A DNA stretch of 40,616 nucleotides from a virus. Below, in pieces: positions 1 to 40,616 of the stretch (the stretch's first letter is position 1; each line of letters opens with the position of its first letter). The stretch lies in the IMG/VR virus record IMGVR_UViG_3300045988_105999, positions 1 to 40,616 of that record. One strand, given 5' to 3'. The notes under the pieces are model-generated. The model made no database searches and had not been told where the DNA came from. It worked only from the letters and a program-made list of their open reading frames with translations. A program made the position numbers and the translations under genes.

Positions 1-99
1 ATATTGTCAATGGTTTTTTATTGTATTTGCGATTTTTATGTGAGGGAAATATGAACGAGATATTGCTACGTATAGAAGCTTTGCGAAAAGCAAAAAAGA
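1..99. repeat. Terminal direct repeat, copy 1 (identical to 40518-40616)
   Basis: Direct comparison: bases 1-99 equal 40518-40616 base for base, implying a circular or terminally redundant 40,517-bp unit. Confidence 0.95.
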
Positions 100-248
100 A
101 AAATGTCACACAATTATGCAAGGAAGTTGGAATTGCACAAAGCACATATGCAACATGGTTAAGGGACGACAGGATTCCACGATCTGATAAGATTCAGTTG
201 TTTGCAGAATATTTTGGCGTTGATGCGACAAGAAAACTGTTTTTGTGA
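51..248 (+). CDS. XRE/Cro-CI type HTH regulator, 65 aa, C-terminus looks cut short
   Basis: ATG 51 follows a GAGGGAAAT RBS. NVTQLCKEVGIAQSTYATWLRDDRIPRSDKIQLFAEYFGV is a typical HTH_3 pattern. The usual family ending is replaced by ATRKLFL-stop. Confidence 0.75.
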   Translation: MNEILLRIEALRKAKKKNVTQLCKEVGIAQSTYATWLRDDRIPRSDKIQLFAEYFGVDATRKLFL

Positions 249-264
249 AAGAGAGGAAGAAGTT

Positions 265-1035
265 ATGAAAAAATATCTTGTTGTGGTTGTTATGGCTTTC
301 TCGGTTATTCTTTGCCCCTCCATGGTATTGGCAGAAGAAACATATACATTTACAGAAGATGAACTTTATGATTACGTGTATGAACAGGTTCACGAAGACC
401 CCGCGGCATACATCACAAAGGAACAACACGCTCGCATACTAGCTATCTTCGCCAAGCGCACACGGAGCACCAAGCGAAAAAAAGTATATCTGTTCGCAGG
501 GCTTATCAAATGCCCTGTATGCGGAAGAACTATGGTGAGCTGTACCATGAACAAGAAAACTCTTGGCTACCGATGCAGACACCATTACACATACCATTGC
601 ACATTTATCCACACCATAACCGAAGAACGCATAGAAAGCTTTCTCCTTGAAAATATAGGCTCGATGCTTGAGCAATACCTGATTTCATACAAAGAACAGA
701 ACAAAGCGAAAAAAAAGCCTGACCCCCGGAAGTTGGAGGACAGGCTCTCTCGATTAAACAACATATACATGATGGGCAACATCTCTGACAGTGAGTACAC
801 GAAAAAGGCAAACGAAATAACGGCTCAAATTGCCGCTATAAAGTGTGCAAACAGCAACGACCTTCCAATCCCCGAAGAGTCCATAAAACTCCTGTCAGAC
901 AAGCGATTTGCCACCTTGTACGCTGACTTGCCACGGGAAAGCCGCAAGGCTCTGTGGATGAGTCTCATTGATTCAATCGAGGTTGAGGGGCTTTACCCGA
1001 AGCAAGTCTTTTTTATCGGTCAGGAAAGCCTCTAA
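265..1035 (+). pseudogene. Large serine recombinase C-terminal remnant (zinc ribbon + coiled coil) fused in frame to a signal-peptide-like leader; catalytic resolvase domain absent
   Basis: ATG 265 follows a GAAAGAGAGG RBS. Leader is MKKYLVVVVMAFSVILCPSMVLA. Then come YLFAGLIKCPVCGRTM..GYRCRHH..YHC (recombinase Zn-ribbon pattern) and LSRLNNIYMMGNISDSEY. No N-terminal Ser-catalytic domain is found anywhere in the window. Confidence 0.6.
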
Positions 1036-19441: not shown

Positions 19442-19517
19442 TGGAGCTCCGCACGGGATTTGAACCCATATCTCCAGATTACAAAACTGGCATTCTCCCT
19501 GATTGAACTAGCAGAGC
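19442..19517 (-). tRNA. tRNA-Thr (anticodon UGU), CCA encoded
   Basis: Hand fold of the minus strand: GCUCUGC-UA-GUUC-AAUCAGGGA-GAAU-G-CCAGU-UUUGUAA-UCUGG-AGAU-AUGGG-UUCAAAU-CCCGU-GCGGAGC-U-CCA. 76 nt. One U-U at 31:39. Confidence 0.8.
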
Positions 19518-19575: not shown

Positions 19576-19649
19576 AGGTGACGGGTGGACTCGAACCACC
19601 GCCCTGATGAGTTTTCACTCATCCTCTCTTCCAACTGAGCTACGCCACC
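19576..19649 (-). tRNA. Atypical tRNA, GAA (Phe-like) anticodon context, 8-nt (or 6-nt) anticodon loop, no encoded CCA
   Basis: GGUGGCG-UA-GCUC-AGUUGGAA-GAGA-G-GAUGA-GUGAAAAC-UCAUC-AGGGC-GGUGG-UUCGAGU-CCACC-CGUCACC-U. All arms are canonical except the anticodon loop length. Confidence 0.65.
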
Positions 19650-39245: not shown

Positions 39246-39286
39246 TGTGGTATAATCTCTTTACCCGCAAAGGGTAGAAAGAGAGG
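39246..39286 (+). promoter_or_regulatory. Promoter / 5' hairpin / RBS cassette, copy 1
   Basis: TGTGGTATAAT (39246-56), hairpin TACCC-GCAAA-GGGTA (39262-76), GAAAGAGAGG (39277-86), ATG at 39292. Confidence 0.6.
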
Positions 39287-39291
39287 TCTCC

Positions 39292-39651
39292 ATGTTTTAC
39301 TTACGACTTTTGCAATTACTCCACATCCTCAACGTCAGAAACCGTAACCGTGCATACGACGGCAATCTGGGTGACTTTGCCAATATCGTCTACGACAACG
39401 TCGATAGATTCTGTTTTAACAAGCGTTTTCGTACAGAGGTTGAATCTCTGATACAGGCACTTGCTGACTACAGATGCGTTAAATATGGTGTTGAGGACGG
39501 ACGAATCAAGAAAGTGATTCTTACTCACGTTGGAGCACATTATCCGTCATACATATTTCTTGCGATTTGCAAAAGTGTTGTGTTGCCGATAATCGTTTCC
39601 GCTATTACAGCACTTGTCACGTCACTTATCACCGTGCTGGCCACTACATAA
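39292..39651 (+). CDS. Tail-anchored membrane protein, 119 aa
   Basis: RBS GAGAGG 5 nt upstream. C-terminal hydrophobic region YIFLAICKSVVLPIIVSAITALVTSLITVLATT. Confidence 0.65.
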   Translation: MFYLRLLQLLHILNVRNRNRAYDGNLGDFANIVYDNVDRFCFNKRFRTEVESLIQALADYRCVKYGVEDGRIKKVILTHVGAHYPSYIFLAICKSVVLPIIVSAITALVTSLITVLATT

Positions 39652-39810: not shown

Positions 39811-40005
39811 CTACTCCTTACTATCCAGAAAATACTCAATGGGTACATCGAAGTAATCTGAAAGGATTTTCAGCTTGTCCAGTTTTGGGTTGCTTCTTCC
39901 TGTCTTCCAGTCGGAAAGACAACTTTGCGGAATGCCTGTCTCTTTCGCAAGCGCGTACTGGGTCAGCTTTTTCTTCTTCATTAACTTTTCTATCTTTTTG
40001 TACAT
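39811..40005 (-). CDS. XRE/Cro-CI type HTH regulator, 64 aa
   Basis: AAAGGAGAGCGA RBS. KLTQYALAKETGIPQSCLSDWKTGRSNPKLDKLKILSDYFDVPIEYFL is a complete HTH_3 pattern. Confidence 0.85.
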   Translation of the reverse strand: MYKKIEKLMKKKKLTQYALAKETGIPQSCLSDWKTGRSNPKLDKLKILSDYFDVPIEYFLDSKE

Positions 40006-40027
40006 TCGCTCTCCTTTCTACCGTTTT

Positions 40028-40069
40028 TGTGGTATAATGTTTTTTGCCCGAAACGGGCGGAAAGAGAGG
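40028..40069 (+). promoter_or_regulatory. Promoter / 5' hairpin / RBS-like cassette, copy 2
   Basis: TGTGGTATAAT (40028-38), hairpin GCCCG-AAA-CGGGC (40046-58), GAAAGAGAGG (40060-69). Divergent from the XRE gene. Confidence 0.6.
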
Positions 40070-40372
40070 TGGTTGTTTTTGACAAACATTTTGAGTCCGC
40101 CCCGCACCATTAGCAGAGTATGCTCTGTCAAAATGTGGCGTAACGAGATAGGGTTAGCCCTCCTATCAACATCGCTGGGAATCGCGCAAAAATCCACGAC
40201 ACCATACTCTCGTTGCACTTGCTACGGGGCTTAAAAACCACGTGTCCACCATACGTAAAAAAGTGCAGTCGCAGAGGTGTGCGGTGCTATACGTATACAC
40301 TCTGCATTTCGACCTATGGTTATAAAGTTGGTGGCAAGTAGCACAATGTGATAGCACGCATTGTGCTTTTTT
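40045..40372 (+). ncRNA. Candidate ~330-nt structured transcript (or a 51-codon TTG-start ORF 40079-40234 with a long 3' UTR)
   Basis: Bounded by the promoter at 40028-38 and the terminator at 40340-72. Several long-range stems (ACATTTTGA/TCAAAATGT, CAGAG/CTCTG, GCAGAGGTGT/ACACTCTGC). No ATG ORF with an RBS. Confidence 0.4.
40340..40372 (+). terminator. Intrinsic terminator
   Basis: AGCACAATG-tgatagcacg-CATTGTGCT followed by TTTTT. Confidence 0.8.
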
Positions 40373-40402
40373 GTTCTCTTTCCATTCAAAACGCATTTAC
40401 GA

Positions 40403-40431
40403 TTGACACTATATCGCATTTGTGGTGCTAT
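40403..40431 (+). promoter_or_regulatory. Promoter of the XRE / recombinase-remnant operon
   Basis: TTGACA (40403-08), 17 nt, TGCTAT (40426-31) preceded by TGTGG (extended -10 family). Confidence 0.5.
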
Positions 40432-40517
40432 GAGCTTGTTTAACGAGTAAATTAAATACGATGCTACTGTTTTATCGCTTTCGCGTTTTTGTATTCTCAT
40501 TATAAATCACATTTGCG

Positions 40518-40616
40518 ATATTGTCAATGGTTTTTTATTGTATTTGCGATTTTTATGTGAGGGAAATATGAACGAGATATTGCTACGTATAGAAGCTTTG
40601 CGAAAAGCAAAAAAGA
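40518..40616. repeat. Terminal direct repeat, copy 2 (identical to 1-99)
   Basis: See copy 1. Confidence 0.95.

What the first reader, a model, noticed from the sequence alone, without database searches (positions are those of the whole stretch)
40045..40372. Promoter-to-terminator unit of ~330 nt with no convincing ORF, divergent from the XRE repressor gene
Between the copy-2 promoter (40028-38) and a strong terminator (9-bp stem, T-run, 40340-72) there is no ATG-initiated ORF with an RBS. The only candidate is a TTG-start 51-codon frame (40079-40234), 9 nt after GAGAGG, with an unremarkable composition and ~135 nt of 3' UTR. The RNA is rich in long-range pairings: ACATTTTGA 40086-94 with TCAAAATGT 40129-37, enclosing CAGAG-tatg-CTCTG; GATAGGG..CCCTCCTATC near 40146-40168; and GCAGAGGTGT with ACACTCTGC near 40271-40305, enclosing the palindrome ATACGTAT. 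Its promoter overlaps, back to back, the likely promoter of the XRE gene at 40005. Expression of the two should therefore be mutually exclusive, as in a cI/cro switch. Here one arm of the switch may be a non-coding RNA or micro-protein rather than a Cro.
Basis: partly seen in the sequence, partly recalled or inferred. Interest (0 to 1): 0.65.

Follow-up and report, generated by a model that had tools for sequence, protein, structure and literature searches.

The report
Divergent FuFi-1 RNA gene in phage switch
The ~330-nt promoter-to-terminator unit is a real non-coding RNA gene: a divergent copy of FuFi-1, a known structured RNA of unknown function that sits beside the repressor gene in many uncultured gut phages, and it does not replace Cro.

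Summary
An extended -10 promoter (40028-38) is followed by a 5' hairpin, a strong Shine-Dalgarno sequence, no ATG ORF and an intrinsic terminator (40340-73). The RNA folds better than shuffles (z = -4.1).

The unit is not an orphan. Relatives L139, L057 and L138 match Rfam FuFi-1 (RF02986) just below threshold. A covariance model built without the window hits 40195-40375 (E ~6e-7). A profile of canonical 5' leaders hits 40032-40101 (E 6e-4). The window keeps the family's covarying hairpin-loop/terminator-loop kissing pair (GUGCUAU/AUAGCAC). It has lost the conserved three-way junction, so Rfam's own model misses it.

The TTG frame is the homologue of a short family leader ORF (MTxLLxLPxP, 12-36 codons, start ATG/GTG/TTG). 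The 51-codon product is not conserved.

Across about 90 viral contigs the unit lies between a small divergent gene (HTH cro/xis-type where recognisable) and a co-oriented cI-like repressor gene. It faces a strong convergent promoter, so it is nested antisense in the early-operon leader. The window has its own cI-like gene at 40569, truncated here, and close relatives carry protein cassettes in the same slot. The RNA is therefore an accessory part of the immunity region, not a switch arm. Its mechanism is inferred, not shown.

The parts
40028..40038 (+). Extended -10 promoter TGTGGTATAAT of the RNA unit (no -35)
   Evidence: Read from the sequence. The same module precedes the 119-aa ORF at 39247-57. 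An identical 21-mer precedes the L057 unit. Canonical relatives have TGn-extended -10 promoters at the same place.
40046..40058 (+). 5'-terminal hairpin GCCC-GAAAC-GGGC
   Evidence: Present in all family members with a varying stem. Helix 1 of alignment A5 shows GC 13, CG 11, GU 2 at its outer pair.
40060..40072 (+). Shine-Dalgarno-like GAAAGAGAGGTGG
   Evidence: Conserved as (A/G)AAGGAG in all relatives, 7-10 nt before a start codon. It lies inside the nhmmer match to the canonical leader profile (E 5.8e-4).
40079..40234 (+). TTG-start frame of 51 codons. Only the first ~10 codons (MTNILSPP..) are homologous to the family's short leader ORF.
   Evidence: Relatives have MT(x)(L/F)L(x)(L/M)P(x)P, 12-36 codons, with start ATG, GTG or TTG. 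The 51-aa product has no real homologues.
40101..40213 (+). Middle domain: hairpin GAUAGG/CCUAUC (40147-52/40162-67) and motif CGCUGGGAAUCGCGCAAAAAUCC (40173-95)
   Evidence: nhmmer match between the window unit and L139, E 1.9e-8, with two compensatory pairs in the hairpin. The motif is shared with L057, L138 and L139.
40214..40267 (+). FuFi-1 P1 stem (40214-20 with 40261-67) enclosing hairpin ACGU-GUCCACCAU-ACGU (40240-56), followed by the AAG junction
   Evidence: Custom covariance model alignment. Two compensatory changes relative to L139 P1.
40268..40313 (+). P3 (GUCG 40268-71 with CGAC 40310-13) and long hairpin 1 (GCAGAGGUGU 40271-80 with ACACUCUGC 40297-305). The family's second hairpin and AUAGAA junction are missing.
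   Evidence: The v-marked non-pairs in the model alignment show the collapsed junction.
40284..40290 (+). Kissing sequence GUGCUAU in the hairpin-1 loop
   Evidence: Seven Watson-Crick pairs with 40351-57, p ~0.002 by loop shuffling. The same pseudoknot covaries in the family: 7 of 9 pairs with changes on both sides, self 7.4 bp versus cross 4.0 bp.
40314..40334 (+). Linker CUAUGGUUAUAAAGUUGGUGG, a diverged version of the near-invariant AUAGGGUAAACAAAUUUGG
   Evidence: Alignments.
40340..40373 (+). Intrinsic terminator with loop GAUAGCAC (kissing partner AUAGCAC 40351-57) and a T-run
   Evidence: The loop matches the Rfam FuFi-1 consensus loop AuagcaC.
40499..40527 (-). Perfect sigma-70 promoter (TTGACA-17-TATAAT) firing leftwards into the unit. 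Probable early promoter for the XRE gene.
   Evidence: A convergent strong promoter is present in 17 of 22 family representatives, against a 10% background. No antisense promoter lies inside the units in 23 of 25.
40399..40431 (+). Rightward promoter and operator arm (TTGACA 40403-08, -10 TGCTAT 40426-31), facing the leftward promoter. Inverted repeats: 40408-24 with 40508-24 and 40399-412 with 40518-31 (together about 26 nt).
   Evidence: The -10 is TACTAT in L055.
39811..40005 (-). XRE/Cro-like HTH gene (64 aa), divergent from the unit
40569..40616 (+). Start of the cI-like HTH gene. It continues at window 99-248 because the contig is circular. Truncated to 65 aa in this phage.
   Evidence: Full-length cI of 122-139 aa in relatives.

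Best explanation
The unit is a stand-alone gene for a structured RNA of about 330 nt. It belongs, as a divergent variant, to the FuFi-1 class (Rfam RF02986).

Shown here:
- It has its own extended -10 promoter, a 5' hairpin, a Shine-Dalgarno sequence with a short leader ORF, a middle domain and a FuFi-1-type 3' domain. In that domain the hairpin loop base-pairs with the loop of the terminating hairpin.
- The whole unit, not just the 175-nt Rfam motif, is conserved in about 90 uncultured phage contigs.
- In those contigs it lies between a small divergent gene (HTH cro/xis-type where recognisable) and a co-oriented cI-like repressor gene.
- It faces a strong convergent promoter, and the divergent upstream gene has no other recognisable promoter.

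Inferred:
- The RNA is made from the immunity region and is exactly antisense to the long 5' leader of the early (cro) transcript.
- It most likely acts as a stable countertranscript that, together with convergent transcription, damps early-operon expression and favours or stabilises the lysogenic or immune state.
- The SD and leader ORF load ribosomes at the 5' end. This may stabilise the RNA or couple its folding to translation.

It is an accessory module of the switch, not a replacement for Cro or cI.
For: Identity:
- Relatives L139, L057 and L138 hit RF02986 at 51-56 bits, E 1e-8 to 1e-9.
- The window unit aligns to L139 with E 1.9e-8.
- Model R1, built from 19 canonical FuFi-1 sequences plus L139 without the window, hits 40195-40375 full-length at 27.4 bits, E ~6e-7. 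The next best hit has E 0.52.
- The canonical leader profile hits 40032-40101, E 5.8e-4.
- The kissing loops are present, p ~0.002, and covary in the family.
- Family structure: 94.8% of cells paired, 35 pairs with changes on both sides, 0/500 shuffles as good.

RNA rather than protein:
- The 51-aa product has no real homologues.
- ORF length varies from 12 to 36 codons, and indels shift the frame in L138 and L189.

Context:
- 84 of 93 loci have a co-oriented ORF within 500 nt downstream. 18 of 28 distinct products are HTH_3/XRE.
- A convergent promoter scoring at least 10/12 is present in 17 of 22 representatives, against a 10% background.
- No antisense promoter lies inside 23 of 25 units.

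Conservation:
- 1 difference in 373 nt versus 28 in 593 nt of flank between the window and L055.
Against: - Rfam's own model gives no hit on the window even at E <= 10.
- The conserved AUAGAA junction and the second hairpin are missing.
- E-values from the custom model are rough.
- Close relatives (L001, L045-L054) do without the RNA and carry protein cassettes in the slot. The RNA is therefore dispensable for the switch. Any cargo transcribed from this promoter would also be antisense to the early leader, so antisense action does not explain the conserved fold.
- Nothing here shows transcription, stability or any regulatory effect.
- The near-identity to L055 could reflect recent cassette transfer rather than selection.
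Confidence: 0.55

Rival explanations
1. Translation-coupled attenuator, or a P_RE-like leader for the repressor. The unit is the 5' leader of a transcript that can read through its terminator into the co-oriented cI-like gene. The conserved, Leu-rich leader ORF and the hairpin-loop/terminator-loop pairing set the termination efficiency. This would link cI synthesis to translation or nutritional state.
For: - A co-oriented cI-like gene lies downstream in most loci.
- The SD, a start codon (ATG, GTG or TTG) and the first ~10 codons are conserved. L265 lost the usual start but has an in-frame ATG one codon upstream.
- The leader ORF region and the linker before the terminator are the most invariant parts (0.09 bits per column) and are predicted to pair.
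- Only 12 of 22 representatives show a good co-oriented promoter between the terminator and cI.
- The kissing helix includes the top of the terminator stem.
Against: - The leader-linker pairing has no covariation, and it is not better than shuffles in the window, L057 or L138.
- No antiterminator alternative was seen by inspection of the linker and terminator strands. This was not searched for systematically.
- In the window a strong opposing promoter lies between the terminator and cI.
- The terminator is strong: 11 pairs plus a T-run.
- Weinberg et al. 2017 judged the class an improbable riboswitch because it is rarely in 5' UTRs (PMC5737381).
- Relatives without the unit still have cI.
Confidence: 0.18
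2. Trans-acting accessory ('moron') RNA. The fold binds a protein or other RNAs, or self-assembles through its loops. It would give the lysogen or the phage an accessory function such as superinfection exclusion, defence or counter-defence, or host modulation. Its position in the switch region only reflects a cargo hot-spot.
For: - The slot is a swappable cassette site that otherwise holds small membrane proteins with their own promoter, typical of moron cargo.
- L057 carries both a protein cassette and the RNA.
- The fold is complex, with near-invariant single-stranded stretches.
- Weinberg et al. list FuFi-1 among motifs suggestive of a sophisticated biochemical function.
Against: - Across about 90 loci the unit has one fixed position and orientation relative to cI and the divergent upstream gene, unlike freely moving morons.
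- No partner protein or target was identified.
- No significant complementarity to the rest of the genome was found.
Confidence: 0.2
3. Micro-protein gene, or a type I toxin-antitoxin-like module. The TTG frame encodes a functional small protein, and the rest is its structured UTR, controlled by an antisense transcript from the convergent promoter.
For: - Good SD at 9 nt. Start-codon class and N-terminal motif are conserved.
- L057 encodes a 30-aa hydrophobic peptide at this place.
- A convergent promoter is present.
Against: - The 51-aa product has no real homologues and no transmembrane-type hydrophobic segment.
- Peptide length and sequence beyond ~10 residues are not conserved. The L138 homologue of the L057 peptide is disrupted by a deletion.
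- Gene callers called nothing here.
- Conservation is strongest in the non-coding 3' domain.
Confidence: 0.04
4. Decayed remnant of a protein cassette, or otherwise non-functional spacer, in a lysogeny-defective phage.
For: This phage has a truncated cI and a truncated serine recombinase, so gene decay does occur in this region.
Against: - No translated similarity to any cassette protein.
- The unit is intact and 99.7% identical in L055, which has a full lysogeny module.
- Significant homology to a covarying RNA family.
Confidence: 0.02

Closest known systems
FuFi-1 RNA motif (Rfam RF02986; Weinberg et al. 2017, PMC5737381)
   Same: - P1 stem enclosing a hairpin with a CCA-containing loop, followed by AAG.
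- P3, and a hairpin whose loop pairs with the terminator loop (consensus GugcuaU/AuagcaC; window GUGCUAU/AUAGCAC).
- CUGCA and a GGUnAnnAAnUUGG-type linker.
- 3' intrinsic terminator.
- Significant hit to a family covariance model built without the window.
- Same genomic setting as about 90 canonical copies.
   Different: - No hit to Rfam's model.
- The conserved three-way junction (AUAGAA, second hairpin) has collapsed into one long hairpin.
- The linker and the leader invariant blocks have diverged.
- The window has a middle domain with the motif CGCUGGGAAUnGCGnAAAAAUCC, shared only with L139, L057 and L138.
- The Rfam model covers only the 3' 175 nt. The 5' hairpin, SD, leader ORF and middle domain described here lie outside it.
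Phage antisense and immunity RNAs: lambda OOP, P22 sar, P1/P7 c4, P4 CI RNA (from established knowledge, not tested here)
   Same: A small, terminator-ended RNA from the immunity region, transcribed against a lytic or early transcript. The c4 and CI RNAs rely on short complementary elements that covary between heteroimmune phages.
   Different: No sequence or structure relationship; Rfam found none of them. The RNA here is 3-5 times larger with a multi-domain fold. Its covarying complementary elements lie within the same RNA. No target site or processing was shown.
Convergent-promoter switches: coliphage 186/P2 pR-pL, and enterococcal pCF10 prgQ/prgX with Anti-Q (from established knowledge)
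   Same: Two promoters fire towards each other over a shared stretch, so transcriptional interference and sense-antisense pairing are expected. The window also has face-to-face promoters at 40403-31 and 40527-499.
   Different: The overlap here is about 450 nt and contains a complete conserved structured RNA gene with its own terminator. No experimental evidence of interference exists.
Type I toxin-antitoxin modules of Firmicutes prophages (bsrG/SR4, txpA/RatA; from established knowledge)
   Same: A short ORF with an SD in a highly structured ~300-nt RNA, ending in a terminator, with a convergent promoter beyond the 3' end and a prophage location.
   Different: The peptide is not a conserved hydrophobic toxin. 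The convergent promoter heads a whole operon, not a short antitoxin RNA. Conservation lies in the non-coding domain.
5' stabilisers of Firmicutes mRNAs (5' hairpins; STAB-SD of cryIIIA; from established knowledge)
   Same: A 5'-terminal hairpin followed closely by a strong SD at the very start of the transcript. The same module is shared by the protein cassettes of related phages.
   Different: In the FuFi-1 units the SD is followed by a conserved start codon and short ORF. A stabilising role was not tested.

Membership tests
FuFi-1 RNA (Rfam RF02986) | Score at or above Rfam's gathering threshold (59.6 bits) with the curated model | tested here: not met
   No match on the window at gathering threshold, or at E <= 10 even on a 371-nt slice. 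Relatives L139, L057 and L138 reach 51-56 bits, also below threshold.
FuFi-1 RNA (Rfam RF02986) | Significant sequence-plus-structure similarity to family members, using a model that excludes the window | tested here: met
   R1 hits 40195-40375 (+), model positions 1-186 of 186, 27.4 bits, E ~6e-7 (rough calibration). The next hit has E 0.52.
FuFi-1 RNA (Rfam RF02986) | P1 stem enclosing a small hairpin (loop AACCAAAA type) followed by AAG | tested here: met
   40214-20 pairs with 40261-67 (7 bp). Inner hairpin ACGU-GUCCACCAU-ACGU. AAAAAAG precedes the 3' strand. Two compensatory changes relative to L139.
FuFi-1 RNA (Rfam RF02986) | Multistem junction with conserved AUAGAA, two hairpins and UGCA | tested here: not met
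   Only AGAGG and CUGCA remain. The second hairpin is absent and hairpin-1 stem positions are marked non-canonical in the model alignment.
FuFi-1 RNA (Rfam RF02986) | Complementarity between the hairpin-1 loop and the terminator loop (pseudoknot). Inferred here from covariation; whether Rfam annotates it was not checked. | tested here: met
   GUGCUAU (40284-90) pairs with AUAGCAC (40351-57), 7 bp, p ~0.002. In the family, 7 of 9 pairs have changes on both sides and 90% of cells pair.
FuFi-1 RNA (Rfam RF02986) | Rho-independent terminator as the 3' element, preceded by the conserved linker GGGUAAACAAAUUUGG | tested here: inconclusive
   The terminator is present. The linker is recognisable but diverged: UGGUUAUAAAGUUGG.
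Full FuFi-1 transcription unit as defined here (promoter, 5' hairpin, SD, leader ORF, body, terminator; between a divergent small, often HTH, gene and a co-oriented cI-like gene) | Homologous 5' leader and the same gene neighbourhood | tested here: met
   The leader profile hits 40032-40101, E 5.8e-4. The XRE gene is divergent at 40005 and the cI-like gene co-oriented at 40569. Family context.
Type I toxin-antitoxin | Conserved small hydrophobic toxin ORF | tested here: not met
   The window peptide has no transmembrane-type segment and no real homologues. The peptide is not conserved among relatives.
   A cI-like gene at 40569 has operators and its own promoter. No sigma-70-like leftward promoter lies at 40006-40378. 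Relatives lack the RNA.
Antisense regulator of the early operon (functional class, not a sequence family) | The RNA and the target transcript overlap on opposite strands and both are made | not testable with these tools
   The overlap is predicted from promoter positions. Transcription data are needed.

The most novel reading that the evidence does not exclude
The FuFi-1 unit is a previously unrecognised third component of the lysis-lysogeny switch in a large group of gut Firmicutes phages. It is a ribosome-loaded, pseudoknotted RNA nested antisense in the early leader and upstream of cI. It would set the cro/cI balance at the RNA level, by countertranscript action and/or translation-sensitive termination. 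The window then shows a natural variant that keeps the kissing loops but has lost the three-way junction.
Probability: 0.2. Interest if true: 0.8.

Novelty: new variant of a known kind. Interest (0 to 1): 0.5.

Why it matters
FuFi-1 is one of the orphan bacterial RNA motifs singled out in 2017 as likely to have a sophisticated function. The only paper in the searchable library that mentions it gives no role or gene association and found no self-cleavage.

Placing the class in phage immunity regions turns that orphan into a testable hypothesis about RNA-level control of lysogeny in gut phages. Three findings support the placement:
- The unit lies between a small divergent gene (often an HTH regulator) and a cI-like gene.
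- It faces the early promoter.
- It carries a conserved 5' ribosome-binding leader that the Rfam model does not cover.

The window's variant shows which parts are kept (P1, kissing loops, terminator, leader) when the junction is lost. For the scan itself, the finding is real, but it belongs to a known class and is not a new kind of switch.

Tried and rejected
1. Exact k-mer scans with five different 22-35-mers of the unit found nothing in viral, genome or metagenome contigs. Purine/pyrimidine-coded patterns are not accepted.
2. 80 metagenome and 43 viral loci anchored on XRE relatives held no copy. Only look-ups of near-identical XRE proteins in Logan/ENA found L055.
3. Decayed protein cassette: tblastn of all cassette proteins against the unit gave nothing significant.
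4. Micro-protein: a search of 1.84 billion representatives gave only two weak multi-stretch hits to 540-684-aa proteins.
5. Trans-target search inside the phage genome: the best hit was 15/16 nt, E 0.66.
6. Kissing loops as hypervariable specificity determinants: rejected. Their column entropy (1.13 bits) is like that of neighbouring stems (1.0-1.3).
7. Leader-linker closing helix: predicted in canonical members but invariant, so without covariation. It is not better than shuffles in the window, L057 or L138. Left open.
8. Cultured phages: blastn of two canonical units against 50,697 phage records found nothing. The window region matched only XRE genes.
9. Literature: only one paper mentions FuFi-1. 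A broader search found nothing on its function.
Full report
**1. The observation**

The window is a circular phage contig: bases 1-98 repeat 40519-40616. Nearly all its genes lie on the minus strand.

At the finding, TGTGGTATAAT (40028-38) is an extended -10 promoter. It is followed by these elements:
- a 5' hairpin GCCC-GAAAC-GGGC (40046-58);
- the purine run GAAAGAGAGGTGG (40060-72);
- no ATG ORF with an RBS;
- a TTG frame at 40079-40234;
- an intrinsic terminator at 40340-67 plus a T-run, with 11 pairs.

The + strand folds to -113.9 kcal/mol (z = -4.1, 0/100 shuffles as good). The - strand gives z = -2.5.

**2. The unit sits in a cassette slot**

Phages whose XRE protein is 83-98% identical share the promoter and hairpin (window up to about 40063) and the region right of about 40376. 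These are L001, L045-L054 and L057.

In between they carry a 105-121-aa ORF with a C-terminal membrane segment, plus a convergent 59-65-aa membrane ORF. One of these cassettes is the window's own 119-aa gene at 39292-39651 (91% identical), which lies behind the "copy-1" promoter.

The unit shows no translated similarity to any cassette protein. It is therefore not a decayed copy.

L055 is a contig with an intact cI (139 aa), an ImmA-like peptidase and a tyrosine integrase. It carries the unit with 1 difference in 373 nt, against 28 differences in 593 nt of flank.

**3. Finding relatives**

Exact k-mer scans failed.

L057 carries a second copy of the promoter 21-mer. It drives a ~385-nt unit that shares CGCTGGGAATnGCGnAAAAATCC with window 40173-95. 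That motif then retrieved L138 and L139.

All three hit Rfam RF02986, FuFi-1, at 51-56 bits against a gathering score of 59.6, with E from 1e-8 to 1e-9. The window itself gives no Rfam hit.

A pattern taken from the FuFi-1 consensus retrieved at least 120 viral loci. 93 of them carry the GAACCAAA hallmark sequence, which was my filter for true FuFi-1 copies. 87 have full flanks, and these fall into 17 clusters at 90% identity.

**4. Homology of the window unit to the family**

- The window unit aligns to L139 with E 1.9e-8. The alignment runs into L139's Rfam-matched region.
- A profile of canonical units, built without the window, hits the 5' leader at 40032-40101 with E 5.8e-4.
- A covariance model built from 19 canonical 3' domains plus L139 hits 40195-40375 over its whole length. 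The score is 27.4 bits, E ~6e-7, and the next best hit has E 0.52.
- The window keeps P1 (40214-20 with 40261-67), the inner hairpin, P3, CUGCA, a diverged linker and the terminator with loop GAUAGCAC.
- The window lacks the AUAGAA junction and the second hairpin. Hairpin 1 has become a single long stem.

**5. Family structure**

On 30 non-redundant full units (alignment A5), 94.8% of cells pair and 35 pairs change on both sides. No shuffle out of 500 reaches these values, and slid controls drop to about 40% paired.

A pseudoknot between the hairpin-1 loop and the terminator loop covaries at 7 of 9 pairs. Complementarity averages 7.4 bp within an RNA and 4.0 bp between different RNAs, with 21 distinct sequences among 34 RNAs.

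The window has this pseudoknot: GUGCUAU at 40284-90 pairs with AUAGCAC at 40351-57, p ~0.002. L139 has GUGCUAC/GUAGCAC, and L057 and L138 have CUCGCA/UGCGAG.

These loops are no more variable than the adjacent stems. I therefore do not claim diversifying selection.

**6. The leader and the TTG frame**

All family members have a 5' hairpin, (A/G)AAGGAG, a small hairpin at the start codon, and a short ORF beginning MT(x)(L/F)L(x)(L/M)P(x)P. The start is ATG, GTG or TTG and the length is 12-36 codons.

The window's TTG at 40079 (MTNILSPP...) is the homologue of this ORF.

For translation: L265 has lost the usual start but has an in-frame ATG one codon upstream.

Against a conserved peptide:
- Stop positions vary.
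- L189 and L138 carry frame-shifting indels.
- The 51-aa product has no real homologues among 1.84 billion representatives.

So ribosome loading or a short leader peptide is plausibly functional. The 51-codon frame is not a protein gene.

The leader block UUUUGAAUUUGCCU and the linker GGGUAAACAAA are almost invariant and are predicted to pair. There is no covariation for this helix, and the pairing is not recovered in the window.

**7. Context**

- In 84 of 93 loci a co-oriented ORF starts within 500 nt downstream. 18 of 28 distinct products are HTH_3/XRE cI-type.
- A small divergent ORF lies upstream. 5 of 16 distinct products are XRE-type HTH proteins and one more is HTH_17 (Xis-like).
- A strong promoter on the opposite strand lies within about 330 nt beyond the terminator in 17 of 22 representatives, against a background of 10%. 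The window has TTGACA-17-TATAAT at 40527-40499.
- 23 of 25 units contain no promoter-like site on their antisense strand.

The divergent upstream gene (the XRE gene in the window) is therefore most likely transcribed from beyond the unit. Its leader of 350-550 nt would be fully antisense to the RNA.

In the window the real operator region is 40376-40568. It has inverted repeats at 40408-24/40508-24 and 40399-412/40518-31 (together about 26 nt), repeated ATTTGCGAT motifs and face-to-face promoters. It lies upstream of a cI-like gene at 40569. In this phage that gene is cut to 65 aa.

**8. Interpretation**

Shown: the unit is a divergent, full-length member of the FuFi-1 transcription unit, a covarying structured RNA with a fixed place in phage immunity regions.

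Inferred: it acts as RNA, most likely as a stable countertranscript to the early leader, helped by convergent transcription. This would favour the repressed state.

Two rivals remain live:
- a translation-sensitive attenuator that feeds cI;
- a trans-acting accessory RNA.

The cassette swap in close relatives shows that the RNA is not essential to the switch.

Its call that this is a non-coding RNA unit is supported.

**9. Known versus new**

FuFi-1 was described by Weinberg et al. 2017 as a highly conserved motif with a 3' terminator. They found no self-cleavage, thought it unlikely to be a riboswitch, and reported no gene association (PMC5737381). I found no later work on it and no cultured phage carrying it at blastn level.

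As far as I could check, the new points are:
- the window's junction-less variant;
- the conserved 5' leader and ORF outside the Rfam model;
- the fixed position upstream of a cI-like gene, divergent from a small (often HTH) gene;
- the convergent-promoter architecture.

Noticed in passing
window 1-98 and 40519-40616: The two ends of the window are identical, so the contig is a circular, probably complete, phage genome of about 40.5 kb.
   Followed up: yes
window 40569-40616 + 99-248; window 265-1035: The cI-like repressor is cut to 65 aa (HTH only) by a deletion of roughly 350-400 nt relative to L045 and L055. The large serine recombinase has lost its Resolvase domain and gained a signal-peptide-like N-terminus (256 aa versus 446 aa in relatives). 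This phage looks like a lysogeny-defective derivative, yet its FuFi-1-like unit is intact.
   Followed up: partly
window 39247-39651: A second copy of the promoter, 5' hairpin and SD module drives a 119-aa protein with a C-terminal membrane segment, embedded antisense in the leftward early operon. The same gene (91% identical) occupies the RNA's slot in L045-L048 and L052. Cassettes therefore move between two slots with this module as the boundary.
   Followed up: partly
window 19576-19649 (-): ARAGORN calls a tRNA of unknown identity with a four-base anticodon (gaaa). Rfam tRNA scores it at 47.8 bits. It lies next to a tRNA-Thr(UGU) at 19442-19517. It could be a frameshift-suppressor-like or otherwise unusual phage tRNA.
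   Followed up: no
window 40399-40531: The rightward (cI-side) and leftward (early) promoters are face to face, with about 55 nt of overlap. They sit in two overlapping inverted repeats (40408-24/40508-24 and 40399-412/40518-31, together about 26 nt) that each include a TTGACA. This is a P2/186-like layout, unlike the back-to-back layout in L175.
   Followed up: partly
window 40421-40431 versus 40280-40290: The -10 region of the rightward promoter reads TGTGGTGCTAT in the window and TGTGATACTAT in L055. The two changes weaken the -10. They also create a 10/11 match to the hairpin-1 loop TGCGGTGCTAT, so the site is complementary to the terminator loop. This may be chance.
   Followed up: no
L255 4604-4987: A natural chimera has a hairpin-1 loop (GCGCUAU) from one FuFi-1 lineage and a terminator loop (GACAGCC) from another. 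The kissing pairing is broken (4 bp). The apparent recombination breakpoint lies inside the RNA gene.
   Followed up: no
L057 1528-2434: One prophage carries both a 121-aa membrane-protein cassette with its convergent 59-aa partner and, behind a second promoter copy, a FuFi-1-like unit. The leader ORF of that unit encodes a 30-aa hydrophobic peptide (MTDALISALIGSFLILVCLCGVMHRLTASG). In the L138 homologue this ORF is disrupted.
   Followed up: partly
L157 262-290 and 664-680: The 16-nt sequence TTGACTGCGGCGGGGA at the -35 of the FuFi-1 promoter recurs as an inverted copy just after the terminator. It is a possible shared operator flanking the RNA gene.
   Followed up: no
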